Assembly: GCA_003599815.1 (NCBI GenBank) | Contig: QZJZ01000005.1 | Coordinates: 33,410 to 97,409 of the forward strand | DNA from: Candidatus Auribacter fodinae | GTDB lineage: Bacteria; Auribacterota; Auribacteria; Auribacterales; Auribacteraceae | Length of the DNA: 64,000 bases | Direction: 5' to 3' | In this document: positions 1 to 61,032 of the stretch, one piece after another | How the letters are laid out: every line of letters starts with the position of its first letter | How positions within the stretch are numbered: position 1 is the stretch's first letter | The notes under the pieces: generated by a model | Database searches by the model: none | The model's input: only the letters and a program-made list of their open reading frames with translations | Told to the model about the DNA's origin: nothing | Translations under genes and position numbers: made by a program

Positions 1-1254
1 TGCTCCCGCCTGTGTGTCGTAGGCGTCAACATTGATAAGCAGGATATCCAGCTTCGAGTCGATGAGTTGCTTCATCAGAAACTCACTGAGTTGGGTTCCG
101 TTGGTTTCAAGGCATACCCGTGCCGCACGGTTATCTTTGGCGTATCGTATAAAGTCGATCAGTTCAGAATGCAATGTCGGTTCGCCGTACCCTGACAACA
201 CGAACAGCGGCGTGTACGCGCCGAAATCGTCGATAATGCCCTGAAACACTGCTTTATCCATATCTTTCGCAGGGCGTTGTAAGACAGTTTGCGGGCATGA
301 ATCGCATTTCAGACTGCATCTGCTGGTCAGTTCGATTTCCACCATAGACGGGAAAAGATAATTTGATTTCAGATCTATTTCCCTCGCTCTATCGTCATAA
401 TTCTCCGCAGTGAGCGATTGCAGTTTCCGGCACAACTCTTTTATTACGGCGATATCTTTCTGATAATGAACAGGGTAGAAATTGTGCATATCGGAAGAGT
501 TGACATTGATACCGAAATTTTCCGCGGTTTCCCTGAGAATATCGTCCAGATGGGTTTTCCTGCTGTAATAATCGGTGATAAAACGGATTTTATCCTTTGC
601 GACAGATTCTGTATCGCTTTGCGGATTAATCGCCTTTAACTGCGCGACAGCGTCTTTTATACGGGCAGTCTCGCTTTTGATGTCATCATTGTTCTTGTAA
701 GTGCAGACCGTCAACTTGCTCTGGATGTCAGGGACAGGAACAAGGTATATGTCGGAGCCGTTGTGCATGTGGCTGGTATACATCACGCCTTTGGCATTGG
801 AATTTTTTATTATTTTATCAATAAAATCAGGTTCAAGAAGGGGCACATCATCAGCGGTAAGTACAACTGCCAATTCAAGTTTTGTTTGTATCGCGTATCT
901 CAGCAGGCATGCGGGCGAATAAAACCCGTACCGCGGTTTTATATAGATAAAATCATCGTTTATCATACGGTTCGAGTCGTTGAACGCATAGGGCTCGTCA
1001 TTACTTATCCTGATGAGGCTTATGGTAACCGGCGAATTGTTTTTCTGAACAGAACAGACACACTCCGCAATGGGGTTATCGGCAGGTTTGTCGGAGGTCA
1101 CCACGTTGATAATGCTCAGTGCAGTGGACTGCTGGAGCCTGAGCAGAATATTTTCCAGAATCGATTTTCCGTTCAGTTTTTCCAGAACCAGCGACGGCAA
1201 ATCCAGCTTATTTTTGACATAAACAGACGCATGGATAAACATATGGCTTATCAT
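1..1254 (-). CDS. Radical SAM protein with N-terminal nucleotidyltransferase-like domain. 3' end truncated by the window edge; the gene is absent from the ORF track because it has no in-window stop.
   Basis: Reverse-strand translation from ATG at 1254..1252 (RBS AGGAGA about 10 nt upstream) is open through position 1. It reads MISHMFIHASVYVKNKLDLPSLVLEKLNGKSIL...VEIELTSRCSLKCDSCPQTVLQRP...LSGYGEPTLH. CxxxCxxC (CSLKCDSC) is the canonical radical SAM 4Fe-4S motif. The N-terminal ~300 aa is loosely nucleotidyl/cytidylyltransferase-like (KNKL..L..L.GKS.L..I; ADDVPLLEPDFIDKII). Confidence 0.6.
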   Translation of the reverse strand, partial: MISHMFIHASVYVKNKLDLPSLVLEKLNGKSILENILLRLQQSTALSIINVVTSDKPADNPIAECVCSVQKNNSPVTISLIRISNDEPYAFNDSNRMINDDFIYIKPRYGFYSPACLLRYAIQTKLELAVVLTADDVPLLEPDFIDKIIKNSNAKGVMYTSHMHNGSDIYLVPVPDIQSKLTVCTYKNNDDIKSETARIKDAVAQLKAINPQSDTESVAKDKIRFITDYYSRKTHLDDILRETAENFGINVNSSDMHNFYPVHYQKDIAVIKELCRKLQSLTAENYDDRAREIDLKSNYLFPSMVEIELTSRCSLKCDSCPQTVLQRPAKDMDKAVFQGIIDDFGAYTPLFVLSGYGEPTLHSELIDFIRYAKDNRAARVCLETNGTQLSEFLMKQLIDSKLDILLINVDAYDTQAGA

Positions 1255-1527
1255 TCTACAACTATCTCCTATGCGTAAATGTAAATCCGTGAGAACCTAT
1301 TATACCTGTTTCAGCGGGTAATCGTAAACCTCATTTAATCACAAACCGGCATAAATTTATATGATATTATGCGACTTTTTTTGTTGCAGGGAATAGTACT
1401 TGCTTTTATCAGTATCAACCGGATGTGCGTAATGAAGTGTTTTTTTATTAGACATAGTGGTTTCCAGTTATTTCAGTTTGAAATTAAAATGTACCTGTTC
1501 TGAACTTGCAGTTAGGAGAAGTACCTG

Positions 1528-3387
1528 ATGTGTGGAATCGGCGTTTACATATCCAAAGATACGATCAGCGAGCAGAAACTTGCTGATAAGTTAAACACAA
1601 TGAACGCCAGTCAGGAGCATCGAGGCCCTGACTTTTCAGCAAGTTACTGTCACGGACACGTAGGATTATGCCATACGCGGTTATCCATTATCGACCTGTC
1701 CGCGCAGGCAAACCAGCCGTTTTATTCGCCGGAAAGAAAGTATGTGCTTTCCTACAACGGAGAACTGTACAATTTCAGAGAACTTCGTGAAAAACTCATA
1801 AGCCTCGGTCATGTTTTCACTACTCATTCCGATACGGAAGTTGTTCTCCACTCGTATATGGAATGGGGAACCGGTGCGTTCGTCAAATTCAACGGAATGT
1901 TCGGGCTTGCCATTTATGATTCCGTGGAGAACAAAGTGATTCTCGCCCGTGACCGGATGGGCATGAAGTTTATCCATTATTACGCTGATGAAAAACAGAT
2001 CGTGTTTGCGTCGGAAATAAAAGCCATACTGAATGTTGTGGGCATACCCGAGTACCGTACAGAAGCAGTAAACGATTTTCTCGTGCTTGGGCAGATAGAC
2101 AAAACCCGGAGCTTCTTTCAGGGTGTGCAAACGTTACTGCCGGGTAAGTTCTGTGTCGTGAACCTGTCGGATTACTCCGTTACGCCTGTCGGGTATTATA
2201 ACCTTCAGGCAAACATCGACCCTGACAGGTATATCTGCAACAAGAGCATATCCATGGAAGAACACGTAGATACGCTCGACAAACTGCTCCGCAAATCGAT
2301 AGAAAAGCATCTTATTGCCGATATCCCCGTAGGCACATTATGCAGCGGCGGGCTGGACTCTAGCCTCGTTACCGCAATAGCGAAACAGATCAACCCTGAC
2401 GTCAGAATATATCACGGCGGAGTGGAAGAAGGCGGAGGCGAAGAGGAATATGCTGTCCTTGCGGCAAAACATCTGAATGTGGATATCAACTTTATTTATA
2501 TGTCACGAGACAAGTACCTCAATGATCTCGTTGATACGGTGTACCAGATGGAAACGCCATGTTTTCATCAGAATGACATCTCGCTCTATCATATATGCAA
2601 ACTAGCACGCACACACGGGGTAAAAGTGCTGTTGTCCGGTGAAAGCAGTGACGAACTGTTCGCCGGGTATCCGTGGTATCCCAGATTGATGAAAAAAACC
2701 GCTTTTGCCGATCCGAACGGCACAGGCTGGACAAACGATTACCTGCCCACAGCAGGGTTGTTTTATCGTTTTCCCGATTATTACGAAACGCCGCGTCTCG
2801 CCAACGCGTATTCGCTGTTTGCGCATCAGGGCGAAAAACTGCTCAGGTGGAACTGGATACTCGATACGTTCGGGTTTCTGCAGGATATCAGCGAAAAGAC
2901 AGGCAACGCCATCCTGATCGACAACTTGCTCACCTTTTTGAATACATTGTTGTACACCGCTGACAGGATGGGCATGCTGTCGTCCATAGAAAACAGGTTC
3001 CCGTTCATAGAGAACGACATAGTCGATTTCACGCTCAACCTTCCGTTGGAATTTAAAGTCGATTTCCGCGCTGGGAAAAAGGTGTTAAAACTGGTTGCAG
3101 AACGGTATCTTCCGAAGGAAATAATCTATCGCAGGAAACAGGGGTTCCCGACACCGGTGGAATCGTACATATCGTTTAATGAAGCGTTTTTCAAAGACGG
3201 TTTTTTAGAACAGCATTTATCTCTGCCCGCGTCAATATTCGGTAAGACCGGAGTGGATAAACGATTGATGTACCGCCTTACCACAGCAGAAGTCTGGGGG
3301 CGCATATTTGTGCTGAAACAAAATCTCGACGAGATTAAAAATCATATTTCAGCGACGCTCAACAGGAAATATCAGTATATATCGTAA
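1528..3387 (+). CDS. asnB: Asparagine synthase (glutamine-hydrolysing), AsnB/WbpS-like amidotransferase
   Basis: N-terminal MCGI (Cys2 class-II glutamine amidotransferase) and the SGGLDSS PP-loop motif. 619 aa. RBS AGGAGA. Confidence 0.88.
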   Translation: MCGIGVYISKDTISEQKLADKLNTMNASQEHRGPDFSASYCHGHVGLCHTRLSIIDLSAQANQPFYSPERKYVLSYNGELYNFRELREKLISLGHVFTTHSDTEVVLHSYMEWGTGAFVKFNGMFGLAIYDSVENKVILARDRMGMKFIHYYADEKQIVFASEIKAILNVVGIPEYRTEAVNDFLVLGQIDKTRSFFQGVQTLLPGKFCVVNLSDYSVTPVGYYNLQANIDPDRYICNKSISMEEHVDTLDKLLRKSIEKHLIADIPVGTLCSGGLDSSLVTAIAKQINPDVRIYHGGVEEGGGEEEYAVLAAKHLNVDINFIYMSRDKYLNDLVDTVYQMETPCFHQNDISLYHICKLARTHGVKVLLSGESSDELFAGYPWYPRLMKKTAFADPNGTGWTNDYLPTAGLFYRFPDYYETPRLANAYSLFAHQGEKLLRWNWILDTFGFLQDISEKTGNAILIDNLLTFLNTLLYTADRMGMLSSIENRFPFIENDIVDFTLNLPLEFKVDFRAGKKVLKLVAERYLPKEIIYRRKQGFPTPVESYISFNEAFFKDGFLEQHLSLPASIFGKTGVDKRLMYRLTTAEVWGRIFVLKQNLDEIKNHISATLNRKYQYIS

Positions 3388-4259
3388 ACGATGGGGCTGT
3401 TGCTTTCTCTGACGCACACAAGCAGATGGTTTTTGTTTACTGAGAGAAAAACCGGCGTGTAATGCGTTTCGCTGAAATCGAAATCCTTGGTAAAGATAAG
3501 GTTCCCCTCAGCGTCATATTTTTTGATCGTATTTTCCAGCATTCCGGAACCGACAAAAAAGCAGTCCAGTTCTTTGCTGTATGCTATGGATTCCCCGGTC
3601 AATTCCGTTTGTTGAAACGCGCCGTTTCTGAAGGTAAAGATGTTGCATGTTTTTCTCAGATTTGCGGTTTGGAAAAAGTCGATGATGTACAGCGTATCAT
3701 TGAAATACGCCAGTTGAATCGGGTATATGAAATTTCCCTGATAAGACGATATGTTGCCGTTCGGGTTAAGGTAATGCAGGATGCCCGACATTGCTTCACA
3801 GAAGTATATTCCGCCTTTATCGTCGGTGATGACAGACATAATCGCTTTATCTTTGAAAAACGGAATTTCGTCTTCCATGGCGCCGATAAGCTTGAAATCC
3901 TGTGAGAAGAGTTTAGCGGAGAATAATACTATATTGACAGTAGTCAATCCACTTACAATGTACATTTCCCTGTATGAGGTAATGGTGGACAGTTCCCATG
4001 GGTAGTGAGAACTCATCGCATATTTGTTGAGTATATTAAAATTAGTATCGGCTGAAATGATCTCTTTTGCTTTTCGATCGGACGAACTATTGTTAAATAA
4101 TATCTTTTCATTCACGCACGAGATTGTTCTGAAGTTCAGCACTGAGACGTCTGAGAGTAATGCCGTAGCTTTTTTATTATATCTGAGATAATAATCTTTT
4201 TGGAATTTTTCAGCGGTCAAAGTAATTTTCTTACTATCATTATTATCCATTTTATCCAC
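3372..4259 (-). CDS. Hypothetical protein, no recognisable motif
   Basis: 295-aa ORF convergent with and overlapping the asnB 3' end by 16 nt. No signal peptide. Confidence 0.4.
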   Translation of the reverse strand: MDKMDNNDSKKITLTAEKFQKDYYLRYNKKATALLSDVSVLNFRTISCVNEKILFNNSSSDRKAKEIISADTNFNILNKYAMSSHYPWELSTITSYREMYIVSGLTTVNIVLFSAKLFSQDFKLIGAMEDEIPFFKDKAIMSVITDDKGGIYFCEAMSGILHYLNPNGNISSYQGNFIYPIQLAYFNDTLYIIDFFQTANLRKTCNIFTFRNGAFQQTELTGESIAYSKELDCFFVGSGMLENTIKKYDAEGNLIFTKDFDFSETHYTPVFLSVNKNHLLVCVRESNSPIVYDIY

Positions 4260-4521
4260 GATATCTGGCTGTTTGGTTTGGCAATATTATAAATATTATT
4301 CCTTTGATATCAAATTACAGCGGAAGAAGCGAGCAAATTTTAATAAAAGATGACGAGGTTAGTATAAAACATCATCATATCAGAGAATATTTCAACAGTT
4401 AAATTTCGTTTCAGAAGAACATGATCCTGATTAACATTGTGGCATAATAAATGCTTTAAATTCTTTGAGTACCTCTGTCTTGCATTTTTATCATATTTAA
4501 TCATAAATAAAGGAGCATGGA

Positions 4522-6366
4522 ATGAATCCGGTATTGCAGGAAATAAAACAAGACAAAGCAGTAAAATTAAAGGCATACAAGGACAAGTTCGAAATGAGTT
4601 TGAATGACTGGATGCAATATCATCATTCCGAAATAGTTATGGATCAATGTTTCTATATGGGAGTTAAAACGCTAAAGAATCCAATGGATCTTTGGGTTTA
4701 TCAGGAGATCATATACTCTGTAAAGCCCGACGTGATTCTTGAAATTGGTAGTATGCACGGAGGTAGTACTCTTTATTTTGCAAACCTTCTTGATTCAATA
4801 GGGCGTGGACAAGTAATTTCTGTGGATATACAGCGCGATTATTACCAGATTGAACATGAAAGGGTGATAGAAATTACTGGTGACAGCGCATCACCGGAAG
4901 TAGTGAATAAAGTATATGACCTATGCAAGGATAAAACTGTCTTTATCATTCACGATGGAGAACATTCAAAAGTACAGGTGCTTAAAGATCTGAGAGCCTA
5001 TGCAGATTTAGTTAGCCTGAACAGTTACTTTATTGTTGAGGATACCACAAGCGAATTTTTAACCAAAAATGAACTATACGAGGGTCCGTTTGAAGCGGTT
5101 GAGGAGTTTTTAAGGGAATCATCGGATTTTATTGTAGACAATACTCGTGAACGATATCTGCTTACATATGCTATGAACGGTTTTTTAAAACGGATTCAGG
5201 TTAATAATAAAACTGCTGAAACACCAGCGTGCGTTATGAATAAATCAGTTGTATCCGGTAACGATCTTGCGCCATATCTTGCGGTGAGATACAGAATGAT
5301 TGTCTTATCAAACTATGTTAAATCCAATATGAATAGGCTTGATTACGAGAGTCAGGAAATACTCTGCGATCTCGGTCTCAATATGTATACGTTATTCAAG
5401 GATGTGCTGGATTTATCCTTTGGATCCATATCCTTACAAGGAAATACAGCTATATATGGATCTGGCGCATTTTGTGAAGTACTGGTTTCTACTTTGAACA
5501 GGTATCAAGATATCTTCCTCACTGCGATTGTGGAAAAAAACGAGGCTAAGCACGGTTCAACAATGCTTGGGTTGCCTGTTATATCGATAAATGATTTGGA
5601 AAGATATGAAATACGAAATATTCTTATTGCCTCATTGGCACACGGTCGCGAAATAGCGAAGCGTCTTGAGTATCTACGAAAGGAAAAGAATATTAGGGTT
5701 ATCCAACTTCCTCTTCAGCTATTATCTATTATGAATCCTAACATTGAATATGCGGATGAATTATTGAATACTTATCCCATCATAGCATCGGAGATGATGA
5801 GCCAAGAGCAGTTGTGTGTCATTATAAGAATGTTGGGAAAGGTTCTGATCGACAATGTGGATGGAGATATTGTTGAATTAGGTTGTAATTCCGGTTCCAC
5901 ATCGTTATTTATTCGTCGGATGCTGGATCATTACCAGAGTGATAAGAAGTATCATGTGTATGATTCGTTTGAAGGTTTGCCGGATCATACAGATTATGAT
6001 GTTCCCCAAAGCGGAATTCAGCGTTTTAAAGGGGAATGTTATACTACCAGAGATATATTTATCCAGAAATTCAACGAGGCTGGTCTTGTTTTGCCCGAAA
6101 TTAATGAAGGCTGGTTTAAAGATATCCCTGATGAGAAGTATCCCGATAAAATATCTTTTGCATTTTTTGATGGTGATTTCTATTCATCAATTATAGATAG
6201 TTTTGAGAAAGTGTATCATAAGTTATCGAGTAATGCGATTGTATGCATCCACGATTATCGAAACAGGAATTTACCGGGAGCCCGTAAAGCATGTGATGAT
6301 TTTCTGCATGATAAACCAGAAACTGTCTTTGAAATTGATGGTATAGGGTACATGGTAAAGATCTGA
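4522..6366 (+). CDS. Two-domain SAM-dependent O-methyltransferase fusion: N-terminal CmcI / rhamnosyl-O-methyltransferase-like, C-terminal TylF / macrocin-O-MT-like
   Basis: N-terminal KNPMDLWVYQEIIYSVKPDVILEIGSMHGGSTLYFA resembles the CmcI (cephalosporin-hydroxylase) family. C-terminal FAFFDGDFYSSIIDSF and IHDY resemble the TylF family DxDxYES core. RBS AAAGGAG. Confidence 0.55.
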   Translation: MNPVLQEIKQDKAVKLKAYKDKFEMSLNDWMQYHHSEIVMDQCFYMGVKTLKNPMDLWVYQEIIYSVKPDVILEIGSMHGGSTLYFANLLDSIGRGQVISVDIQRDYYQIEHERVIEITGDSASPEVVNKVYDLCKDKTVFIIHDGEHSKVQVLKDLRAYADLVSLNSYFIVEDTTSEFLTKNELYEGPFEAVEEFLRESSDFIVDNTRERYLLTYAMNGFLKRIQVNNKTAETPACVMNKSVVSGNDLAPYLAVRYRMIVLSNYVKSNMNRLDYESQEILCDLGLNMYTLFKDVLDLSFGSISLQGNTAIYGSGAFCEVLVSTLNRYQDIFLTAIVEKNEAKHGSTMLGLPVISINDLERYEIRNILIASLAHGREIAKRLEYLRKEKNIRVIQLPLQLLSIMNPNIEYADELLNTYPIIASEMMSQEQLCVIIRMLGKVLIDNVDGDIVELGCNSGSTSLFIRRMLDHYQSDKKYHVYDSFEGLPDHTDYDVPQSGIQRFKGECYTTRDIFIQKFNEAGLVLPEINEGWFKDIPDEKYPDKISFAFFDGDFYSSIIDSFEKVYHKLSSNAIVCIHDYRNRNLPGARKACDDFLHDKPETVFEIDGIGYMVKI

Positions 6367-6502
6367 TCGACAAGTCATCAGGAATACTCAAATATTCTTA
6401 ACTCTTTGGTATCGTCTCATCACTTTTGTAAAGTTAGAAATCTCTTAGTATACTAGTTGGTCTGTAATGCTGAACATATAATGTACATAAAAGTGGCAAA
6501 TA

Positions 6503-8719
6503 ATGGATATAGCTGTTATTTTTTCATTGTATGAGGATTCGTATCTTTTCAAGAGGTTTTTCGCGTGGGCAGAAGAAGTCAGCAAAGATAACTGTTCTTT
6601 TCATTTTATCCACCATTCTCAAAAAACTTTAAACAATACTATAGATTTTCCTGGAAAATATATTCATCTTGTTGACTACAAGGATGTTGTGCTTTATCTT
6701 GAGGAGAATGAAATTGATATTGTGCATTCGTATATCGGAGATAAAGTAACCTTCTTGGCGCGGGCGGCTGGAGTAAAACGGATAATTCAGCATCCTATAT
6801 CCAGTTATACTGAACTGGGAGTGGATTCTTACCCGGCAGACTGTATTTGTTGTTCCGATGAAAGTATGATTGGCCAGCTGAAAAAACAGTGTCCGCAAAA
6901 ACATATAGTTTCCATCAAAGACAGCATTAATATCGAGCCGGATCATAAGCCTCAGGATCTGCGGGATAAACTAGGTTTTAAATCCGGTGAAATCGTAATC
7001 GGTTTTGTCGGGAAATTATGGCGTCAGAAATATTTCGATAAGTTCATTTCAATGTTTTTGGAGTTATGCAAAAAAAATAAGAAATTGAAACTAGTACTCG
7101 ACGGGAGGACTTATAATAAACAATTTGAAGACTACCTTAATAGTAGGGTTGAATCAATATATTTTCATGATGATCCTGATGAACTGATCGCTAACTCGGA
7201 TATTTTGGTAATCAAGTCGGAAACATATTTTAATCCATATGGCGAAATTATTACTGAAAATGATCAAGAATATAACTGGTGGTTAATGCATGCAATGGCA
7301 TATGCTATCCCATTTATAACGATTTATAATAAGACTCAGAAACAAAGAAAGGAACTTATTAACGACAAAGAAAACTGTTTTGTCGTTGGCTTGGATGATA
7401 TGGCAGCTTATCAGGCAGCGCTCGCAGAACTAATCGATAATAAAAGAATCCGTGATACGTTTGGGCAAAACGGTAGAAAGATTCTGACAGAGGGTTACGG
7501 TGTAAATCTTGTAGCACAGCAATATAAAAAGCTTTATAACTATCTCTTGTCCGAACAGTTTGTGTCTGATTATCCATCAGCATCAAAAGATGCGGAGACC
7601 CATTTTCTGGGTAATATGATCGAACTGAAATCTCTTAAACTTGATCACAGAAAAGTGCTTGTTGTCCGTTCGGGAAGTCAAGTAAAAACAGAGGAATTGA
7701 TTACAAATATGACGAGAGCGTTTCCATCCGTGGAGTTGTCTCTTTGTTGTCATAAACGGAATTTGTCTGAAATGCGAAAATACGCAAATATCCATGAAAT
7801 TATTACCTATCAAAAATCCGATAGTTTTGATCAGGCAAGAATGAAAGCAGCCATTAAAAAGATTAATCGAAAAAAATATGATTATGTCTTTTTTGTCTTT
7901 AATAGTATTTTCCAGGAAATGACCCATCAGAATCTGTTGGATATTATCGTACAGTTACGTCCTGAATCAGGTATTGTAATATCGACGGGGAAACTCAACT
8001 TCCTTTATCCTTTTGTGCGGAAAGATGATATTGAGAGAAACCATCTTATAAATAAATATAAAAAAGCGCTGGACCCTGAGCAAGAATATGTGATTACTTC
8101 TCCATGGGAAAAGAATATTGCACATCTGCCGAAATGGGATCGATTTAAAATCGAGAAATACAGGGAAGTTATTAACTCCAGCAAAAAAATTCTTTGTTGC
8201 GGAGACCCCACTAATCCTATGTTCGGATTGTTTGAGGATGAACTAAAGGGTAAAGAACTCATTTCTGTTGATATCGTTGAAAAATGCAATCGTGATATAA
8301 TTGCAGATATTTGTGATTTACACATGATTGAGGATAACTCTATAGACGGTATTATATGTTATGCTATTTTAGAACATGTATATAATCCTTTCAAAGCAGT
8401 TGATGAATTGCATAGAATTTTAAAATCTGGTGGAAAAATAATGATGTTTGTTCCATGGATGTGGCGCCATCACTCGAATAAAAAAACATGCTTTGATTTT
8501 TATCGCTTCTCATGCGAGGGTGCCCGGTATTTGTTAAAAGATTTTTCCTATGTGGAATTGTCTCCTATACAGGGTAAACTGGAAGCGGTTTTTGTCTACG
8601 TCCTTCAGTTTATAAAATACCGGTCATTACTACACAAGCCGCTAGTCAAACTTATAAGAAGATTTGACAAGTGTACAGAAGAGGATCCTTCCGGATTTAA
8701 TATTTTTGCTGTTAAATAG
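6503..8719 (+). CDS. Glycosyltransferase (GT1/GT4-like) fused to a C-terminal class-I SAM methyltransferase domain
   Basis: Middle region GFVGKLWRQKYFDKFISMF...LVLDG is GT4-like. C-terminal ILCCGDP...DGIICYAILEHVYNP...LKSGGKIMM is Methyltransf_11-like. 738 aa. Confidence 0.5.
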   Translation: MDIAVIFSLYEDSYLFKRFFAWAEEVSKDNCSFHFIHHSQKTLNNTIDFPGKYIHLVDYKDVVLYLEENEIDIVHSYIGDKVTFLARAAGVKRIIQHPISSYTELGVDSYPADCICCSDESMIGQLKKQCPQKHIVSIKDSINIEPDHKPQDLRDKLGFKSGEIVIGFVGKLWRQKYFDKFISMFLELCKKNKKLKLVLDGRTYNKQFEDYLNSRVESIYFHDDPDELIANSDILVIKSETYFNPYGEIITENDQEYNWWLMHAMAYAIPFITIYNKTQKQRKELINDKENCFVVGLDDMAAYQAALAELIDNKRIRDTFGQNGRKILTEGYGVNLVAQQYKKLYNYLLSEQFVSDYPSASKDAETHFLGNMIELKSLKLDHRKVLVVRSGSQVKTEELITNMTRAFPSVELSLCCHKRNLSEMRKYANIHEIITYQKSDSFDQARMKAAIKKINRKKYDYVFFVFNSIFQEMTHQNLLDIIVQLRPESGIVISTGKLNFLYPFVRKDDIERNHLINKYKKALDPEQEYVITSPWEKNIAHLPKWDRFKIEKYREVINSSKKILCCGDPTNPMFGLFEDELKGKELISVDIVEKCNRDIIADICDLHMIEDNSIDGIICYAILEHVYNPFKAVDELHRILKSGGKIMMFVPWMWRHHSNKKTCFDFYRFSCEGARYLLKDFSYVELSPIQGKLEAVFVYVLQFIKYRSLLHKPLVKLIRRFDKCTEEDPSGFNIFAVK

Positions 8720-8797
8720 GCACCATATCGCTGATGAAGTGTGGTATCAGCCTTCCTCCGCAATCCACTGCGAATAAAAATCTTTTCAGCCCGCGAT

Positions 8798-8826
8798 TTG
8801 CAAAGATGGTTTTTATCGGCTATAAT
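8798..8826 (+). promoter_or_regulatory. Sigma-70-type promoter: -35 TTGCAA, 17-bp spacer, -10 TATAAT
   Basis: TTGCAA 8798-8803 and TATAAT 8821-8826 sit about 42 nt upstream of the PEP-CTERM gene ATG. An RBS AAAGGAAA follows. The same TTGCAA-17-TATA[TA]A architecture recurs at 49422-49450. Confidence 0.5.
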
Positions 8827-8867
8827 TTATATAGAAAAAATAATCAACCCGATAAAGGAAAACCTCG

Positions 8868-9569
8868 ATGCGCAACGTCTTCTCGCTGTCGTGTATATGC
8901 GTACTGCTTATATATGCGGCAGGCGTCTCTGCCTATGAACTGACATGGGATTACCTTGCTCGCACCACATGGGGCGACGGCTTCCGCCCTGACGGCGACA
9001 GTTACGGCAACACCGCTGTCTGGGACTACAAGTATACGCCGTTAAATTCCACAAGTTACGCGCTGTATCAGGCGCTTTCCAACTGGTATGAACCCTATGG
9101 GATGTGGTCGTACCTTCCTGTTCCCGGTGTTGCGGCTGATAACAACTGGCTGGTCGTCGCGGTTAATACTGCTCATCCCGGCAACCTGAATGACCTCGCG
9201 ATACAGTTCATCGCTCCGATGGACGGTGTGTATGACGTCTCTGTCCAGCTGTACAATTGGAACGGAGAAAATCTCAACGGCGCTGACGGGCAGGATTTCT
9301 ACCTGCAGAAAATGTCGTCCATTCTTGACACCGAAACCAATCCGGTGCATGGCACATCGGTTTTATCCGCGCAGGACGTATCACTGCTGGCGGGGGAGTC
9401 GCTCTTTCTGCGTATCAATATGAAAGCGAATTCACATTATGACAGCATATCGGTTCAGCAGTTTGTCGTCACCGGAACGTTTCCTGACCCGGTAGTCGTG
9501 CCTGAACCTGCGTCTGTCCTCCTGATGTTAGCCGGGTTAAGCGTCCTTATCCGCCGCCTGCGGCGATAA
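8868..9569 (+). CDS. PEP-CTERM sorting-domain secreted protein
   Basis: N-terminal signal peptide. C-terminal VPEPASVLLMLAGLSVLIRRLRR (PEP motif, TM helix, basic tail). Paralog of the partial gene at 63307-63981 (YELTWDYLARTTWG vs YDITWDYLERTGWG). Confidence 0.75.
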   Translation: MRNVFSLSCICVLLIYAAGVSAYELTWDYLARTTWGDGFRPDGDSYGNTAVWDYKYTPLNSTSYALYQALSNWYEPYGMWSYLPVPGVAADNNWLVVAVNTAHPGNLNDLAIQFIAPMDGVYDVSVQLYNWNGENLNGADGQDFYLQKMSSILDTETNPVHGTSVLSAQDVSLLAGESLFLRINMKANSHYDSISVQQFVVTGTFPDPVVVPEPASVLLMLAGLSVLIRRLRR

Positions 9570-9770
9570 TCCGGAAACGATGAATAAGTCACAAAATAAT
9601 GTTATTGTTAAGCTTCGCAAAGTCTACGTCAATATCTTCAGCAGGAAAACGTTACACGTATAAGATCACTCCACGTCGACATTCCTCGTGATTGTAAAAG
9701 AGGGCGCAGAACCTTTTTTCAGAATTCCCAACATCCTGATGAGAAAAAAATGTGATGAACAATGTAATAT

Positions 9771-37471: not shown

Positions 37472-38350
37472 ATGAGCGTTGTTAATTCATCGAACCGTGA
37501 ACCTGAGGTTATTTATTCTATCAGGGGCGCGCAATTCAGGGGAATACGGGGAAGGCTTTTGACCACACGTCTTATGGCTCGCGAACTGATCTCCTCTCGA
37601 GAACTTATTTTCAGGCTCTACGCACGGGATTTCAGTACGAAGTACCGCCAGTCGGCGCTGGGTGTTTTATGGGCGCTGTTAGTGCCTCTGGCGACTGTTG
37701 CCATATTCGCAGGAATGAATTCCGCCGGAGTGTTTACAATAGAGGAGATGTCTGTGCCGTATGTGGTGTATGCTCTGCTCGGCATAAGCATATTTAATCT
37801 TTTTAACGGGGTGTTGATAGCGAGTACGCCGTCAGTGGTGTTCGCTCAGAATATGGTCAGCAAGATTAATTTTCCAAAAACCGCGTTGGTCTTTTCCGCA
37901 TCGATACACGGGCTGGTTGACTTTGCCGTGCGCGGTGTGCTTTTGTGCGGCGTTTTCCTGCTTTTAAAACAGTCTCCGCATCCGGCAGGATCTGTGCTGG
38001 GTGTAGTTGCGTTACTTCCGCTGTATCTTTTTTCTGTCGGGGTGGCTTTTTTTTCAACTATGCTTAATGCGATACTCCGCGACATAACCAATGTGGTCAA
38101 TTTCGGGTGCATGGGGATCATGATGCTTTCACCGGTTCTGTATCCTATTTCAGGCGATAGCCTTGTCGCTCGCTTTAATGTATGGAATCCTTTCAATTAT
38201 TTTATCAATGTGCCGCGCGACCTGATATTGTTCGGATCCAGTAAACAGATGGTTGGGTATGGCATATGGTCGATGATATCACTGGCGGTTTTTTATGTGG
38301 GCTGGCGGTTTTTCTTTATAGCACAAAACAGGATTGTCGAACGGATATAA
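37472..38350 (+). CDS. wzm: ABC-2 type polysaccharide/O-antigen export permease (Wzm/KpsM/TagG)
   Basis: ELIFRLYARDFSTKYRQSALGVLWALLVPL is the ABC-2 signature. Six TM segments. Confidence 0.85.
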   Translation: MSVVNSSNREPEVIYSIRGAQFRGIRGRLLTTRLMARELISSRELIFRLYARDFSTKYRQSALGVLWALLVPLATVAIFAGMNSAGVFTIEEMSVPYVVYALLGISIFNLFNGVLIASTPSVVFAQNMVSKINFPKTALVFSASIHGLVDFAVRGVLLCGVFLLLKQSPHPAGSVLGVVALLPLYLFSVGVAFFSTMLNAILRDITNVVNFGCMGIMMLSPVLYPISGDSLVARFNVWNPFNYFINVPRDLILFGSSKQMVGYGIWSMISLAVFYVGWRFFFIAQNRIVERI

Positions 38351-39650
38351 TATGGATATCGCTATTCGGGTAGACTCAGTATCGAAGAAGTTCTGCATGC
38401 GTACACATCATATTATGTTGTACGGAACCATAGATTTATGGCGCAGTTTCTGTGGATACCAGAAAGACAATTCCAGTTTGCGTTCCGGCGAATTCTGGGC
38501 TTTGGACGATATCAGCTTTGAGGTGAAGCAAGGCGAAGCGGTAGGGCTGATCGGCCCGAACGGCGCCGGCAAGTCAACCATGCTCAAATTGCTGAACGGC
38601 ATTTATTTGCCTGATTCGGGGCGAATAGAGATGTATGGCAGGGTCGGCGCTCTTATTGAGGTCGGAGCAGGGTTTCATCCGATGCTGACAGGCAGGGAAA
38701 ACATATACCTGAACGGCGGCATACTGGGTATGAGCAAAGCTGAAATACGTCGTCATTTCGATGAAATTGTCGATTTCTCCGGTATCGAACCGTTTCTTGA
38801 CACGCCTGTCCGGCATTATTCGAGCGGTATGTATGTGCGGCTCGGTTTTTCCATCGCTGTCCATTCAAATCCTGAAATACTGCTGGTGGATGAAGTGCTT
38901 GCCGTGGGCGATGCCGTGTTCAGGCGCAAATGCCTGCAATACATGAAGAACCTGCATAAAAAAGGTGTTACGTTCATTATTGTCAGCCACAATATGATGA
39001 CCATAGAAGGCATAACCGCCCAATGCCTGTATTTTGATAAAGGCAAACTCGCGGGCGACGGCGCGCCGGGCGATGTGATCAGTTTATACGAGATGTCGCT
39101 GGCTCAGAAGGAAGCAGACTCCGGCAACAGGATAAAACCGGATCATGAGCAGTATCCCGATTCGCTTGATTTGGTTGAATACTGGGATTACGGCACAGCG
39201 GAAGTGCATGTACGCGCAGTGCGGTTATATGATATGAACGGTGAGAAAAAGGGACGGTTTGACTCCGATGAGGGAATATGTGTTGAGGCTGTGCTGGACA
39301 GTGCAATAGAAGGTAACGTTTTGTTCTGGCTAACGTTAGCCAATTCTGACAATGTTGCCTGCATGGGAAGCCTGAATATACCGTATACCATGAAAAAAGG
39401 TGTTCAGAACGTGCGGTTTACCTTCAATCCGCTTCGGTTGTCGACAGGGGCATATAAAATCGTGTTTGTCATCAATGATGAGACCGGAACGAATCCATAC
39501 AGTAACGGGCATTACGGTTTTTTTGAAGTGCTGAAAAAGTCTGCCGTAGTGAATCCCGGTTTTGTTGCGCCGATATGCTGGGTTGAACCCGAAGTGGAAT
39601 CATCCGTTATTATACGGGATAATTCCAGCGGCGGAACAAAAGGCGTATAG
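38334..39650 (+). CDS. wzt: ABC polysaccharide exporter ATPase (Wzt/KpsT/TagH) with C-terminal substrate-binding extension
   Basis: Walker A GPNGAGKST, signature SSGMYVRL, Walker B LLVDEV. An extra ~180-aa C-terminal domain is present. The start overlaps the wzm stop. Confidence 0.85.
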   Translation: MSNGYNMDIAIRVDSVSKKFCMRTHHIMLYGTIDLWRSFCGYQKDNSSLRSGEFWALDDISFEVKQGEAVGLIGPNGAGKSTMLKLLNGIYLPDSGRIEMYGRVGALIEVGAGFHPMLTGRENIYLNGGILGMSKAEIRRHFDEIVDFSGIEPFLDTPVRHYSSGMYVRLGFSIAVHSNPEILLVDEVLAVGDAVFRRKCLQYMKNLHKKGVTFIIVSHNMMTIEGITAQCLYFDKGKLAGDGAPGDVISLYEMSLAQKEADSGNRIKPDHEQYPDSLDLVEYWDYGTAEVHVRAVRLYDMNGEKKGRFDSDEGICVEAVLDSAIEGNVLFWLTLANSDNVACMGSLNIPYTMKKGVQNVRFTFNPLRLSTGAYKIVFVINDETGTNPYSNGHYGFFEVLKKSAVVNPGFVAPICWVEPEVESSVIIRDNSSGGTKGV

Positions 39651-39768
39651 ATTTTATGTCATGCCGTAAGAACGGGTTAATATAGTTTGGGATTTGTAGG
39701 AAAGTTTTAACGTTTTATAAAGGTGTCTAATTAAGGTGCTTCAGCGGCGTGGTGAGCTCAAAATGAAT

Positions 39769-39828
39769 AGAGCGAGATTGCCGTAGCCTCTGAGGGCTTT
39801 GCTCTGACATTCTTTTGTGTTTTTTTTG
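39769..39828 (+). terminator. Putative intrinsic terminator after wzt
   Basis: AGAGC...GCTCT stem with inner CCTC-t-GAGG, followed by TTCTTTTGTGTTTTTTTT. Confidence 0.3.
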
Positions 39829-39931
39829 TTGCCCCCAGTGTTAAGAAGACAGGGGAAATTGAGAAATGCTATTTGATTTTGCACCTTGGTAATTTGCTAT
39901 GCTGTAAGTAATCTATCCATATGGAGTTGCT

Positions 39932-41026
39932 ATGCAGGGCAAATCGCATCGGCTGGACGTTTTGTTTGTTCCTGACTGGACACTGTATAACGCGTATCAG
40001 AACCTGCTTGCTGAATCGCTGATCTCGGCGGGAAATGATGTGCGGTTTGGTGCGTTCGCACGCCGGTGGTCTGTCCTGCGTAAAGTGCATGCTACCCGCC
40101 TGCCGGACGTCCTGCATGTTCATTGGCCTGATCCGTACATATTCGGGCAGGAAGTGCTGAGCGGCCGTAAGGAACTGATTATGAACGGTATCAGTTTCCT
40201 GATCGAAATACTGTGGCTGAAAATGCGCGGGGTAAAAGTGGTGTGGACGGTTCATGACCTGTGCAGTCATGATTCCCGGTATTGTGATTACGAACGGTTC
40301 TTTTTGAAGATGCTTGTGCGGGTAAGTGACCGTATCGTAGTGCATAGTAATCACGCTAAAAAGCTGGTGATTGAACGGTATTCCATATCTTCATCACAGG
40401 CGAAAAAGATGAGCGTTATTCCGCTCGGGCACTATATGCACCGGTATAAGAATACTGTCAGCAGGGAACAGGCGCGTGCGCGGCTGGACATTCCCCCGGA
40501 TGAGACGGTATTTTTATATTTCGGCTTGGTGCGGTGTTATAAAGGTGTGGAAGACCTGCTTGACGCGTTTCAGGAACTGAACCCTGCAAAAAGCATTTTG
40601 CTGATTGTAGGGCTGGCATTGGAAGAATCATACAGGGATTTTCTGAAGCAGAAGTACGGTGCTGACCCGCGAATCAGATTTGTACTGGAATTCGTGCCTG
40701 ATGACGACATCCAGCTTTATTTTAATGCGTCTGATTGTGTTGTTCTGCCGTACAGGCGAATTCTGACGTCCAGCACGCTGATGCTGGTTTTGTCTTTTGC
40801 CCGTCCGGTGGTTGTTCCTGCGTTTGAATGTATTGCGGAGGTATTGAATGGGGAGGGGAACATTATGTATAACCCTGATTCGCAGAATGCGCTTCGCACT
40901 GCTCTGCGGGAAGCTTTGAAAATGGACTACAAAGAGGTTGGGAACATGAATCTTGCTTTGGCGCAGTCTGAGCCGTACCAGTGGTCAACTATAGCCGATC
41001 AATATACGTCCGTATACCGAACATAA
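39932..41026 (+). CDS. Glycosyltransferase family 1 (GT4-type)
   Basis: FLYFGLVRCYKGVEDLL...LLIVG...DCVVLPYR is a GT1 C-terminal domain. Confidence 0.8.
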   Translation: MQGKSHRLDVLFVPDWTLYNAYQNLLAESLISAGNDVRFGAFARRWSVLRKVHATRLPDVLHVHWPDPYIFGQEVLSGRKELIMNGISFLIEILWLKMRGVKVVWTVHDLCSHDSRYCDYERFFLKMLVRVSDRIVVHSNHAKKLVIERYSISSSQAKKMSVIPLGHYMHRYKNTVSREQARARLDIPPDETVFLYFGLVRCYKGVEDLLDAFQELNPAKSILLIVGLALEESYRDFLKQKYGADPRIRFVLEFVPDDDIQLYFNASDCVVLPYRRILTSSTLMLVLSFARPVVVPAFECIAEVLNGEGNIMYNPDSQNALRTALREALKMDYKEVGNMNLALAQSEPYQWSTIADQYTSVYRT

Positions 41027-41035
41027 GGATAGAAT

Positions 41036-42016
41036 ATGTCGAAACCGAATATCAGTGTTGTCGTCCCTGCATATAATGCTGAGAAAACCATAGGGTTGTG
41101 TCTGGACAGCATTCTGCGGCAGAATTATCCGCAGGATAAAATGGAAGTCCTCGTTGTGGATAACAACTCCATGGATTCCACAGCTGAGATTATCAAATCA
41201 TATCCGGTTACGTATCTTTTTGAAGACAAAATACAGTCACCGTCAGGGGCTCGGAATAAAGGTATTGTCAACGCGCGGCATGGACTTATCGCGTTTATCG
41301 ACAGTGACTGCATCGCAGATGAACATTGGCTTGCGAATGGAATTACCTCGCTGGATGATGAATCTGTAGGTGCGGTAGGCGGTAAAATACTGGCATATAA
41401 ACCTGAAACATACATTGAAGAGTATCAGGACCGATCCGGTGTTCTGTGGCATGTGGTAAGCGATGAAGCGCACGCGAGGCGCGAGGCACGACTTGTTACT
41501 GCCAACGCTTTTTTCAGAAAAGATGTATTTGATACCCTCGGCTTATTCGACCTGCGGTACAAAGGGGCTGGCGAGGATACGGATATCTGTTACGCAATGT
41601 TGCGGCATACAAACTATAAATTGACGTATAACGAACATGCGCTCGTATGGCATAAGCACCGCACGAACCTCAGACAGTTTTGTAAGCAATACGTACGATA
41701 TGGCTATAACAATATGTTTTTGGATCAGAAATTCTATCCCGAAATAGTCAATGAGATGCACGAAAGCGCTGACAATCATGGAGTACTGCGCACCTTTTAC
41801 TGGCGTTTTTTGTACAGGGAAACATGCAGGGAGTGTTGTGCTGTATTCCCTGCGCTGGGTAGGTACCTTACATCGTTTAAACGGGCGGATAAAACTGCGT
41901 TGTTCGATTCTGTTTTATTCGCGTTAAGTAAAATTGCGTTTGTGCGCGGCGAAATAAGAGCTTTCAAAGAGATCCGCGCGGTACGGGAAAAGCTGACAGA
42001 GGACATCCGCCCATGA
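41036..42016 (+). CDS. Glycosyltransferase family 2
   Basis: ISVVVPAYNAEKTI...VLVVDNNSMDST...FIDSDC shows the GT2 DxD and associated motifs. Confidence 0.85.
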   Translation: MSKPNISVVVPAYNAEKTIGLCLDSILRQNYPQDKMEVLVVDNNSMDSTAEIIKSYPVTYLFEDKIQSPSGARNKGIVNARHGLIAFIDSDCIADEHWLANGITSLDDESVGAVGGKILAYKPETYIEEYQDRSGVLWHVVSDEAHARREARLVTANAFFRKDVFDTLGLFDLRYKGAGEDTDICYAMLRHTNYKLTYNEHALVWHKHRTNLRQFCKQYVRYGYNNMFLDQKFYPEIVNEMHESADNHGVLRTFYWRFLYRETCRECCAVFPALGRYLTSFKRADKTALFDSVLFALSKIAFVRGEIRAFKEIRAVREKLTEDIRP

Positions 42017-61023: not shown

Positions 61024-61032
61024 AAAAATGCC

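What the first reader, a model, noticed from the sequence alone, without database searches (positions are those of the whole stretch)
1528..8719. Glycan-tailoring cluster with two fusion methyltransferases
Within 7 kb there is an AsnB-type amidotransferase, a CmcI-like + TylF-like double O-methyltransferase (4522-6366) and a GT4 + Methyltransf_11 fusion (6503-8719). The window also has four further stand-alone SAM methyltransferases at 17850, 22661, 31930 and 61350. This density of methyltransferase domains around Wzx and Wzm/Wzt exporters and glycosyltransferases predicts a heavily O-methylated, and possibly amidated, exopolysaccharide or glycolipid. Methylated sugars are often chain-terminating signals for ABC-type (Wzm/Wzt) export. 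The Wzt here carries the extra C-terminal domain that recognises such terminators.
Basis: partly seen in the sequence, partly recalled or inferred. Interest (0 to 1): 0.55.

Follow-up and report, generated by a model that had tools for sequence, protein, structure and literature searches.

The report
Strain-variable sugar-methylating gene island
An uncultured Auribacterota bacterium carries a low-GC, strain-variable gene island whose two rare fusion enzymes probably add sugars and several methyl groups to a glycan; this is an ordinary kind of locus in an unusual arrangement, and its proposed link to the distant ABC exporter is not shown.

Summary

The cluster is real and extends upstream of the window, adding two more GTs of the same family, another methyltransferase and a radical-SAM gene. 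It is a low-GC island (36-39% against 46%). The GT-MT gene lies in a 2.4 kb cassette that a 94.6%-identical relative replaces with other genes.

The Wzm/Wzt operon, with a confirmed Wzt_C domain, lies 29 kb away behind unrelated genes. No orthologous locus has Wzm/Wzt within 10 kb. The methyltransferase at 61350 sits among ion transporters, and those at 17850 and 31930 have no adjacent glycan genes.

GT-MT fusions that cap glycans are already known (WsaE, A064R, Pseudomonas syringae). I rate this a new variant of a known kind, of modest interest. One unexplained extra is that such fusion genes repeatedly sit next to giant ORFs.

The parts
1..1254 (-). First 418 codons (including the N-terminus) of a radical-SAM protein of about 630 aa. 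The gene runs off the window start.
   Evidence: The translation carries a CxxxCxxC motif (SRCSLKCDSC). It is collinear with the 632-aa Radical_SAM gene of L001 and the 628-aa gene of L090.
1528..3387 (+). AsnB-type glutamine-dependent amidotransferase, 619 aa.
   Evidence: Asn_synthase 1.1e-65 and GATase_7 2.2e-40. TIGR01536 scores 404.7 bits against 267. It is 75% identical to the syntenic genes in L005 and L006.
3372..4259 (-). Conserved protein of unknown function, 295 aa, always convergent with AsnB and overlapping its 3' end.
   Evidence: No Pfam, NCBIfam or PDB match. It is 56% identical to the syntenic L005 gene and is also present in L001 and L006. GC is 39.4%.
4260..4521 (.). AT-rich (29% GC) divergent intergenic region between the 295-aa gene and the double methyltransferase gene.
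   Evidence: GC. The best promoter-like match in the region is at 4313-4286 on the minus strand (11/12), but the total count of such sites is no higher than in shuffled sequence.
4522..6366 (+). Double O-methyltransferase, 614 aa. CmcI-like domain aa 40-225 (4639-5196). Middle Rossmann-like domain about aa 236-405 (5227-5736). TylF-like domain aa 417-609 (5770-6348).
   Evidence: Pfam, PDB sequence searches and full-length homologues at 92% and 61-62% identity. The middle domain is homologous (1e-18 to 1e-20) to the C-terminal domain of the 387/388-aa 'C2185-like_N' proteins encoded in the related loci L005 and L006.
6363..8761 (.). Strain-variable cassette. A relative that is 94.6% identical on its left and 93% on its right replaces it with unrelated DNA.
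   Evidence: blastn of L001 against the window. No flanking repeats were found. GC is about 36% against 45.7% for the window.
6503..8719 (+). Three-domain GT-MT fusion, 738 aa. GT-B/GT4-like glycosyltransferase about aa 1-350 (6503-7552). Unassigned alpha/beta middle domain about aa 380-500 (7640-8002). Class I SAM methyltransferase about aa 543-738 (8129-8716).
8868..9569 (+). Small secreted PEP-CTERM protein, 233 aa. It forms the conserved right flank of the cassette.
   Evidence: The PEP-CTERM motif matches at 1.3e-3 in Pfam, 19.2 bits, just below the 20.7 gathering cut-off. TIGR02595 scores 20.4 bits against 16. It is 93% identical in DNA to L001.
37472..42975 (+). Separate Wzm-Wzt(Wzt_C)-GT4-GT2-GT2 operon. 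I evaluated it as the proposed exporter; it is not shown to belong to the same pathway.
   Evidence: ABC2_membrane, ABC_tran plus Wzt_C (4.5e-8), Glycos_transf_1 and two Glycos_transf_2 matches. A 100%-identical Wzt, P0178, identifies the source contig Ga0394679_032520. No methyltransferase lies in this operon.

Best explanation
The region is the right-hand part of a cytoplasmic glycan-assembly and tailoring island in an uncultured Candidatus Auribacterota bacterium.

Gene content. Taken together with the 4.7 kb upstream of the window, the island encodes three paralogous glycosyltransferases of a roughly 515-aa 'GT4 plus extra domain' family. One of these is fused to a class I methyltransferase. 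It also encodes a stand-alone methyltransferase, a CmcI-like/TylF-like double O-methyltransferase, a radical-SAM enzyme, an AsnB-type amidotransferase and a conserved 295-aa protein of unknown function.

Proposed mechanism (inferred).
- The GT4 modules add sugars from nucleotide donors to a growing, probably lipid-linked, glycan.
- The double methyltransferase uses SAM and a divalent metal to place two different O-methyl groups on one sugar or on neighbouring sugars. The nearest characterised relatives of each domain methylate rhamnose or other 6-deoxyhexoses that are already attached to an acceptor.
- The GT-MT fusion adds one sugar and methylates it, or its neighbour, in a coupled step.
- AsnB would convert a carboxylate, for example on a uronic acid, into an amide.

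Evolution. The island behaves like a surface-antigen diversification locus. It is low in GC, and whole cassettes of GT and MT genes are exchanged between conserved flanks in related strains.

Shown: the domain identities, the fusions, the conserved synteny, the cassette replacement and the GC anomaly.
Inferred: the substrates, the methylation positions, amidation, the surface location and the export route.
For: -
- The metal and SAM motifs are kept in both halves of the 614-aa protein.
- The syntenic module in L005 reads MT, C2185-like protein, AsnB, 294 aa, CmcI/TylF, MT, GT-MT, MT. Identities to the window are AsnB 75%, double MT 62%, GT-MT 50% and the 295-aa protein 55-56%.
- The upstream extension of the same genome is L090, which is 100% identical over 5051 bp. 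It shows a partial 457-aa ORF whose DNA is about 64% identical to the GT521 gene of L001, then MT280, GT513 and a radical-SAM gene.
- GT521 and GT513 of L001 are 28% identical to aa 1-500 of the 738-aa protein.
- Cassette exchange is seen twice. The window differs from L001 at 6363-8761. L005 differs from L006 between identical flanks.
- A domain swap is seen in P0005, which has CmcI plus the middle domain plus a zinc-ribbon/Methyltransf_11 unit in place of TylF.
- GC is 36-39% for 3372-8719 against 45.7% for the window.
- Characterised precedents for coupled glycosyl transfer and methylation are WsaE (PMC2943079), A064R followed by A061L (PMC9614988), fused GT/O-MT genes in P. syringae (PMC7820976) and Klebsiella O7 ORF6 (PMC11231755).
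Against: - No sugar-nucleotide synthesis gene (rml, gmd/rmd), initiating polyprenyl-phosphate transferase, Wzy, WaaL or oligosaccharyltransferase was found among the window ORFs of at least 150 aa that were scanned. Neither the acceptor nor the fate of the product is defined.
- No exporter is adjacent in any orthologous locus.
- The window's GT domain has His where the L005 and P0028 homologues keep the second Glu of the GT4 E-x7-E-like motif. Its transferase activity could therefore be altered.
- Motif I of the C-terminal methyltransferase is atypical (ILCCGDPT), and Pfam matches only the second half of the profile.
- CmcI and TylF relatives also work on antibiotics, so a non-glycan substrate is not excluded.
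- The organism is uncultured and there are no chemical data.
Confidence: 0.55

Rival explanations
1. The methyltransferase fusions install a methyl cap on the non-reducing end of an ABC-transporter-dependent polysaccharide. The cap stops polymerisation and is read by the Wzt_C domain of the Wzm/Wzt exporter at 37472-39650.
For: - Wzt carries Wzt_C, and its own operon of three GTs has no modifying enzyme, so a terminator would have to be encoded elsewhere.
- In 12 of 80 CmcI-family loci from other phyla a Wzm homologue lies within 10 kb. Examples are the Methyloversatilis, Azoarcus and Rhodocyclaceae loci, arranged Wzm...CmcI...MT.
- A Wzt homologue at 53% identity has a small methyltransferase two genes downstream.
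- Methyl or methyl-phosphate caps read by Wzt are established for E. coli O8/O9a, Klebsiella O3/O7 and Geobacillus.
Against: - Unrelated genes fill the 29 kb between the two loci.
- No Wzm/Wzt lies within 10 kb of any orthologous double-MT or GT-MT gene.
- Another Wzt homologue at 52% identity is followed by a pyruvyl transferase, not a methyltransferase.
- Neither fusion has the coiled-coil ruler or kinase module of WbdD-type terminators.
- Four or more methyltransferase domains suggest extensive decoration rather than a single cap.
Confidence: 0.2
2. Protein glycosylation. The GT-MT and double-MT fusions decorate a neighbouring secreted protein, either the giant 2619-aa protein at 9771-17630 or the PEP-CTERM proteins, with methylated sugars.
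For: - MT-fusion genes abut giant ORFs on the opposite strand in three lineages: the window; L088/L089, where a solitary GT-MT lies 150 bp from a giant gene called at 8741 aa; and L007/L008, where a CmcI-MT lies 74 bp from a 2291-aa gene.
- No ORF of 2000 aa or more lies within 10 kb in the roughly 78 other CmcI-family loci.
- The window's giant protein has a signal-peptide-like N-terminus.
- A PEP-CTERM gene is the conserved right flank of the cassette.
Against: - The giant proteins share only weak similarity at their termini, with E values of 8e-6 and 3e-4 in pairwise searches.
- L005 has the full module and no giant gene.
- The three lineages may all be related, so the adjacencies are not independent.
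- No oligosaccharyltransferase or protein O-GT signature was found.
- The giant protein's repeats resemble cytoplasmic sigma-70 region 4 helix-turn-helix units, which is odd for a glycoprotein.
Confidence: 0.1
3. A product that is not exported: either an intracellular polymethylated polysaccharide or oligosaccharide, analogous to mycobacterial methylmannose polysaccharide, or tailoring of a small-molecule natural product.
For: - There is no adjacent exporter, initiating transferase or ligase.
- The GT domain's structural neighbours include cytoplasmic GT4 enzymes such as BshA, MshA, PimA/PimB' and the methylmannose-polysaccharide mannosyltransferase ManT.
- The mycobacterial cluster likewise pairs a GT4 with dedicated O-methyltransferases (PMC9883506).
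- The solved relatives of the CmcI and TylF domains are antibiotic-tailoring enzymes.
- A radical-SAM enzyme and AsnB homologues also occur in peptide natural-product pathways (lasso-peptide cyclase model at 183 bits, below cut-off).
Against: - No PKS, NRPS, precursor peptide or MmpH-like hydrolase was seen.
- The mycobacterial 1-O-methyltransferase MeT1 was not among the PDB hits of the 614-aa protein. I did not confirm that a MeT1 structure is in that PDB copy, so this absence is weak evidence.
- Cassette swapping and low GC are hallmarks of surface-antigen loci under diversifying selection.
- The PEP-CTERM flank points to the cell envelope.
Confidence: 0.1

Closest known systems
WsaE of Geobacillus stearothermophilus NRS 2004/3a (S-layer glycan; methyltransferase plus two rhamnosyltransferase domains)
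   Same: One polypeptide combines glycosyl transfer with O-methylation of the sugar just added. The gene sits in a low-GC glycan cluster. In WsaE the 2-O-methyl cap is proposed to be read by Wzt (PMC2943079).
   Different: WsaE has an N-terminal methyltransferase followed by two GT domains and is encoded directly beside wzm/wzt. Here the order is GT4, middle domain, methyltransferase, with a single GT, and no exporter is adjacent. No sequence relationship to WsaE was tested.
Chlorovirus PBCV-1 A064R (GT-GT-MT) followed by A061L
   Same: A GT-MT fusion adds L-rhamnose and 2-O-methylates it. A second methyltransferase then adds a 3-O-methyl group to the same sugar. This is the same logic as a GT-MT fusion beside a double O-methyltransferase (PMC9614988).
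   Different: A064R is viral, uses GT-A-type or novel GT domains and acts on a capsid protein N-glycan. Its two methyltransferases are separate proteins, not a CmcI-TylF fusion.
WbdD-type chain terminators and fused WbdA-WbdD genes (E. coli O8/O9a, Klebsiella O3/O7, P. syringae TET operon)
   Same: Methyltransferase modules, sometimes fused to GT modules, terminate ABC-transporter-dependent O-polysaccharides. Some P. syringae isolates have fused GT and O-MT genes (PMC7820976; PMC11231755; PMC3482155).
   Different: Those systems sit in the wzm/wzt operon and usually have a coiled-coil ruler and often a kinase. Neither feature is present here, and the exporter is 29 kb away.
Rhamnosyl O-methyltransferase Rv2959c/CmcI family and TylF/MycF/NovP sugar O-methyltransferases
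   Same: Each half of the 614-aa protein belongs to one of these Pfam families and keeps the metal-binding acidic residues. From general knowledge, these enzymes methylate rhamnose or other 6-deoxyhexoses after glycosyl transfer.
   Different: The known enzymes are single-domain proteins that act on glycolipids or macrolide and aminocoumarin antibiotics. Here the two are fused through an extra domain of about 170 aa. The NCBIfam rhamnosyl-MT equivalog model scores 126 bits against a cut-off of 400. The TylF profile is matched only from position 62 onward.
Mycobacterial methylmannose polysaccharide cluster (ManT, MeT1, pMeT3, MmpH)
   Same: A compact cluster without an exporter that pairs a GT4 with dedicated sugar O-methyltransferases. 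ManT is among the structural neighbours of the GT domain.
   Different: No MmpH-like hydrolase is present. The methyltransferases are not detectably related at the sequence level in the PDB search. That system is intracellular and conserved, whereas this locus is hypervariable.

Membership tests
RMNT_CmcI (PF04989) methyltransferases | Profile match above the gathering score across the whole domain | tested here: met
   158.9 bits against 23.2, covering profile positions 4-206 of 206 at aa 40-225.
RMNT_CmcI (PF04989) methyltransferases | Acidic metal ligands equivalent to CmcI Asp160/Glu186/Asp187. The residue numbering is from my recollection of the CmcI structure paper. | tested here: met
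   The alignment to 2br3 places D145, E173 and D174 at those positions. All three are invariant in six homologues.
Rhamnosyl O-methyltransferase equivalog (NCBIfam NF045824) | Score above the curated equivalog cut-off | tested here: not met
   126.3 bits against a cut-off of 400. The protein is related but is not an equivalog, so rhamnose specificity is not established.
TylF (PF05711) macrocin-type sugar O-methyltransferases | Profile match above the gathering score, with the SAM and metal motifs | tested here: met
   84.4 bits against 23 at aa 417-609, covering profile positions 62-259 of 264. The motifs ELGCNSG, DSFEGLP and DGDFY are kept. IDDY reads IHDY. The N-terminal 60 or so profile positions are not matched.
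GT4 retaining glycosyltransferases (GT-B fold, Glycos_transf_1) | Two-Rossmann GT-B fold with a Glycos_transf_1 C-terminal domain | tested here: met
GT4 retaining glycosyltransferases (GT-B fold, Glycos_transf_1) | E-x7-E motif with both glutamates | tested here: inconclusive
   The window reads EYNWWLMHAMA, with His at the second position. The L005 and P0028 homologues read E...E with six residues between. The functional consequence is unknown.
Class I SAM-dependent methyltransferases (Methyltransf_11-like) | Rossmann-like methyltransferase fold with SAM-binding motifs | tested here: met
WbdD-type O-polysaccharide chain terminators | Methyltransferase, often with a kinase, on a coiled-coil ruler and encoded with wzm/wzt | tested here: not met
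   There is no kinase domain, and no long coiled coil in the model's secondary structure. No wzm/wzt is adjacent here or in orthologous loci.
Wzm/Wzt ABC exporter with a terminus-binding domain | ABC2_membrane permease plus an ATPase carrying Wzt_C | tested here: met
   Wzm matches ABC2_membrane at 2.9e-8. Wzt matches ABC_tran at 2.3e-21 and Wzt_C at 4.5e-8, with 33.6 bits against 30.4, which is marginal. Homologues at about 50% identity also carry PF14524.
Wzm/Wzt ABC exporter with a terminus-binding domain | Wzt_C binds the methylated terminus made by this cluster | not testable with these tools
   This needs binding assays or genetics. Synteny gives no support.
XrtA/PEP-CTERM system amidotransferase (TIGR03108) | Score above the curated cut-off | tested here: not met
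   330.8 bits against a cut-off of 816.9. The generic AsnB model TIGR01536 is met at 404.7 against 267.

The most novel reading that the evidence does not exclude
The GT-MT and CmcI-MT fusion enzymes form a dedicated pair with the giant secreted proteins encoded next to them. Such pairs occur in three lineages: the window, L088/L089 and L007/L008. On this reading the enzymes would glycosylate and methylate these proteins, or build a methylated glycan that anchors them. That would be a giant-protein modification system not yet described in the PVC-related phylum Auribacterota.
Probability: 0.1. Interest if true: 0.6.

Novelty: new variant of a known kind. Interest (0 to 1): 0.3.

Why it matters
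If the model is right, this locus shows how an uncultured phylum diversifies a surface glycan. It would do so by swapping cassettes of fused 'add a sugar and methylate it' enzymes between conserved flanks.

The tandem CmcI-TylF protein would be a compact two-step sugar methylase, which could be useful for glycoengineering of multiply O-methylated deoxysugars.

In practical terms the locus mainly adds uncharacterised members and architectures to well-known enzyme families. It does not open a long-standing question, and no isolate exists for testing the chemistry.

Tried and rejected
- The word-indexed homologue search with the 738-aa protein returned nothing. This was a candidate-limit artefact for a low-complexity, AT-rich gene. 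The exhaustive search and the related loci did find homologues.
- Single-sequence AlphaFold of the 738-aa protein was useless, with pLDDT 36. It was repeated with an alignment.
- The afdb50 fold library was unavailable.
- The metagenome scan for more GT-MT loci returned one locus, identical to L088. It therefore gave no further independent test of the giant-gene adjacency.
- Promoter and terminator scans gave counts no higher than in shuffled sequence.
- No repeats flank the variable cassette, so no mobile-element mechanism can be named.
- The two middle domains of the fusions are unrelated to each other.
- The 295-aa protein has no Pfam, NCBIfam or PDB relatives.
- I first assumed a cyanobacterial origin because of the PEP-CTERM motif and about 46% GC. 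I dropped this when the closest relative proved to be a Candidatus Auribacterota MAG.
- I considered that the Wzx near the CmcI fusion in L007 supports a Wzx route. It is only 26.6% identical to the window's Wzx, so the argument is weak.

Full report
**1. Observation**

ORF 1528-3387 is a complete class II glutamine amidotransferase/asparagine-synthase protein. Asn_synthase matches at 1.1e-65 and GATase_7 at 2.2e-40. TIGR01536 scores 404.7 bits against a cut-off of 267. The Cys2 nucleophile and the SGGLDSS pyrophosphatase loop are visible in the translation.

ORF 4522-6366 (614 aa) carries two independent methyltransferase domains from different families.
- RMNT_CmcI covers aa 40-225 (1.8e-46) and TylF covers aa 417-609 (9.8e-24).
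- The two halves hit different solved structures. The C-terminal half hits MycF, NovP and 4cdz. The N-terminal half hits CmcI.
- The acidic residues aligned with the CmcI metal site (D145, E173, D174) are present and invariant among homologues. The TylF-family motifs DSFEGLP and DGDFY are also present, with IHDY in place of IDDY.
- Between the two domains lies a domain of about 170 aa with only faint Rossmann-like matches: C2185-like_N, Methyltransf_14 C-terminal and NeuD N-terminal.

ORF 6503-8719 (738 aa) has three domains, not two.
- Pfam sees Glycos_transf_1 at aa 152-326 and the second half of Methyltransf_11 at aa 599-647.
- An exhaustive HMMER search of 1.84 billion cluster representatives gave independent support for a true fusion. 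About 13 representatives of roughly 515 aa cover aa 3-500. Many stand-alone methyltransferases of roughly 190-220 aa cover aa 522/543-738 (524 hits at E <= 1e-10 overall). One full-length relative, P0028, is 748 aa and 45% identical.
- An AlphaFold model built on these sequences has pLDDT 80.

**2. Source and true extent**

The nearest relative of the double methyltransferase is 92% identical and comes from a Candidatus Auribacterota MAG, GCA_040756935.1. A 100%-identical Wzt places the window on JGI contig Ga0394679_032520, which is 110 kb long.

A second contig from the same population, L090, is 100% identical to window 1-5051. It extends the cluster 4.7 kb upstream. That stretch holds, in order:
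- a partial 457-aa ORF on the minus strand, with no Pfam call, whose DNA is about 64% identical to the GT521 gene of L001;
- a 280-aa Methyltransf_11-type methyltransferase;
- a 513-aa glycosyltransferase;
- the radical-SAM gene whose first 418 codons occupy window 1-1254 on the minus strand.

The two roughly 515-aa GTs of the relative L001 are paralogues of aa 1-500 of the 738-aa protein, at 28% identity. The whole cluster has three GT modules of one family, four methyltransferase domains, a radical-SAM enzyme, AsnB and a conserved 295-aa protein of unknown function.

**3. Conservation and variability**

An independent assembly, L005, carries the same module. Its order is MT, a 388-aa C2185-like protein, AsnB, a 294-aa gene on the minus strand, the CmcI/TylF fusion, MT, the GT-MT fusion (750 aa) and MT. 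Identities to the window are AsnB 75%, double MT 62%, GT-MT 50% and the 295-aa protein 55-56%. Both fusions are therefore real single genes and part of a conserved functional unit.

The locus is also highly variable.
- The relative L001 is 94.6% identical to window 1-6362 and 93% identical to 8762-9606. It replaces 6363-8761, the GT-MT gene, with an unrelated 2.3 kb that encodes a 55-aa ORF, a 253-aa secreted-looking protein and a different 261-aa methyltransferase.
- The breakpoints lie at the stop codon of the double-MT gene and about 105 bp upstream of the PEP-CTERM gene. There are no flanking repeats.
- L006 shares both flanks with L005, but the interval holds a radical-SAM gene plus a GT1 gene instead of the four MT/GT genes.
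- P0005 keeps the CmcI and middle domains but replaces TylF with a zinc-ribbon/Methyltransf_11 unit.
- The middle domain of the double MT is homologous (1e-18 to 1e-20) to the C-terminal domain of the separate 387/388-aa protein in the conserved core. It may be a shared docking or substrate-binding module; this is an inference.
- GC is 39.4%, 37.3% and 35.7% for the 295-aa, double-MT and GT-MT genes. The window as a whole is 45.7% and AsnB is 46.7%.

Low GC and cassette exchange between conserved flanks are typical of surface-polysaccharide diversification loci. This is general knowledge, and it is also noted for S-layer glycan clusters in PMC2943079.

**4. Rarity**

- The full CmcI-middle-TylF architecture was found in four 90%-identity clusters.
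- Among 185,579 species-representative genomes, one more fused CmcI-TylF ORF turned up in a Thermomicrobiales MAG, and an adjacent but unfused pair in an Armatimonadota MAG.
- Other database proteins combine CmcI and TylF with GT2 or other GT-like domains.
- The GT-middle-MT architecture has one other 50%-identity cluster representative.
- These counts are lower bounds, because the searches depend on shared words or short patterns.

**5. Exporter link**

Wzm (37472-38350) and Wzt (38334-39650, with Wzt_C at 4.5e-8, just above the cut-off) are real. A GT4 and two GT2 genes follow them.

They lie 29 kb from the cluster. In between are a 2619-aa gene, a 210-aa methyltransferase, hybrid histidine kinases, a substrate-binding protein, the MT312-Wzx pair, a pst-like phosphate ABC-transporter operon, an FkbM methyltransferase, another kinase and an iron alcohol dehydrogenase.

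No Wzm homologue lies within 10 kb of the orthologous genes in L001-L007, L077 or L088.

In more distant CmcI-family loci, 12 of 80 have a Wzm homologue within 10 kb. CmcI-type methyltransferases can therefore serve ABC-dependent pathways in general.

Two Wzt homologues at 52-53% identity have their own candidate terminal-modification genes immediately downstream. One has a pyruvyl transferase and the other a small methyltransferase. The window's Wzt operon has none.

Nothing measured here supports it directly.

Of the four 'further' methyltransferases:
- the one at 61350 lies among chromate and ArsP-type transporters and TrmO;
- those at 17850 and 31930 have no glycan neighbours;
- only the one at 22592 adjoins Wzx.

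No initiating transferase, Wzy, ligase, oligosaccharyltransferase or sugar-nucleotide pathway was seen among the scanned ORFs.

**6. Most likely function**

The island most likely builds and decorates a glycan on the cytoplasmic side. The GT4 modules add sugars. The double methyltransferase installs two different O-methyl groups. By analogy, its domain families contain the rhamnose 2-O-methyltransferase of mycobacterial phenolic glycolipids and the 6-deoxyhexose methyltransferases TylF, MycF and NovP; that statement is general knowledge. The equivalog test for the rhamnosyl enzyme fails at 126 bits against 400. The GT-MT fusion couples addition of one sugar to its methylation, and AsnB amidates a carboxylate.

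Characterised precedents for this logic are:
- WsaE, a methyltransferase with two rhamnosyltransferase domains that makes a 2-O-methyl cap (PMC2943079);
- PBCV-1 A064R, a GT-GT-MT protein that performs 2-O-methylation, followed by A061L, which adds the 3-O-methyl group to the same rhamnose (PMC9614988);
- fused GT and O-MT genes in some P. syringae TET operons (PMC7820976);
- Klebsiella O7 ORF6 (PMC11231755).

Two caveats apply. The window's GT domain has His at the second acidic position of the E-x7-E-like motif, where both homologues keep Glu. Motif I of the C-terminal methyltransferase is atypical.

**7. Rivals**

The alternatives are a methyl-cap terminator for the distant Wzm/Wzt, modification of neighbouring secreted proteins, and an intracellular methylated polysaccharide or small-molecule tailoring. 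Each is listed in the rival-explanations section with its evidence.

The protein-modification idea rests on one unexpected pattern. MT-fusion genes abut giant ORFs on the opposite strand in three lineages. No ORF of 2000 aa or more occurs within 10 kb in about 78 control loci. However, the giant proteins share only weak similarity at their termini, and the lineages may not be independent.

**8. Verdict**

- The locus is a new variant of a known kind: multi-domain GT/MT glycan-tailoring enzymes in a hypervariable glycan island.
- Interest is modest. A specialist would find the tandem CmcI-TylF fusion and the cassette exchange neat but not surprising, and the organism is uncultured.

Noticed in passing
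window 9771-17630 (-): A giant 2619-aa ORF with a signal-peptide-like N-terminus. It contains eight copies of an alternating repeat of about 100 and 134 aa with the motif D[FY]xF[LM]...LSxxDQxILYxxY. Its only Pfam similarity is weak Sigma70_r4/HTH_Tnp_4. Repeated sigma-factor-like helix-turn-helix units in an apparently secreted giant protein are odd.
   Followed up: partly
window 6503-17630; L088/L089 10001-22247; L007/L008 10001-19286: GT-MT or CmcI-MT fusion genes sit directly next to giant ORFs (2291 aa up to one called at 8741 aa) on the opposite strand in three lineages. No ORF of 2000 aa or more lies within 10 kb in about 78 other CmcI-family loci. The giant proteins share only weak N- or C-terminal similarity.
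   Followed up: partly
window 27667-30315 (-) and 25904-27670 (-): The two permease genes of the pst-like phosphate ABC-transporter operon are unusually long, at 882 and 588 aa. The 882-aa protein combines a BPD_transp_1 permease domain at aa 700-874 with WD40/beta-propeller-like matches at aa 100-460.
   Followed up: no
window 7268-7300 (aa 256-266 of the 738-aa protein): The second acidic residue of the GT4 E-x7-E-like motif is His in the window protein (EYNWWLMHAMA). It is Glu in both full-length homologues, L005 and P0028. This could mean altered or lost transferase activity in this strain.
   Followed up: partly
L005 6254-12889 versus L006 6639-9029: Two metagenomic relatives share identical flanks: MT, C2185-like protein, AsnB and a 29x-aa gene upstream, and lipoyl and E1 dehydrogenase genes downstream. 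Between the flanks they carry entirely different cassettes. One has four MT/GT genes and the other a radical-SAM gene plus GT1.
   Followed up: partly
window 53340-54570, 58413-59888, 60523-63197: A cluster of oxyanion and metal-related transporters: three chromate-transporter-family ORFs and an ArsP-type permease.
   Followed up: no
window 49502-50188 (+): A second small PEP-CTERM protein, this one with a CBM96 carbohydrate-binding module at 1e-22. It lies downstream of an ECF sigma factor and an anti-sigma pair at 48017-49076.
   Followed up: no
L092 11302-12495: In another contig from the metagenome assembly (ERZ21869602) that also yielded the Auribacterota MAG contig L007/L008, the closest large-contig Wzt homologue (52% identical) is followed directly by a polysaccharide pyruvyl transferase and seven GT genes (six GT2 and one GT4). 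This suggests a pyruvate cap rather than a methyl cap for that transporter subfamily.
   Followed up: no
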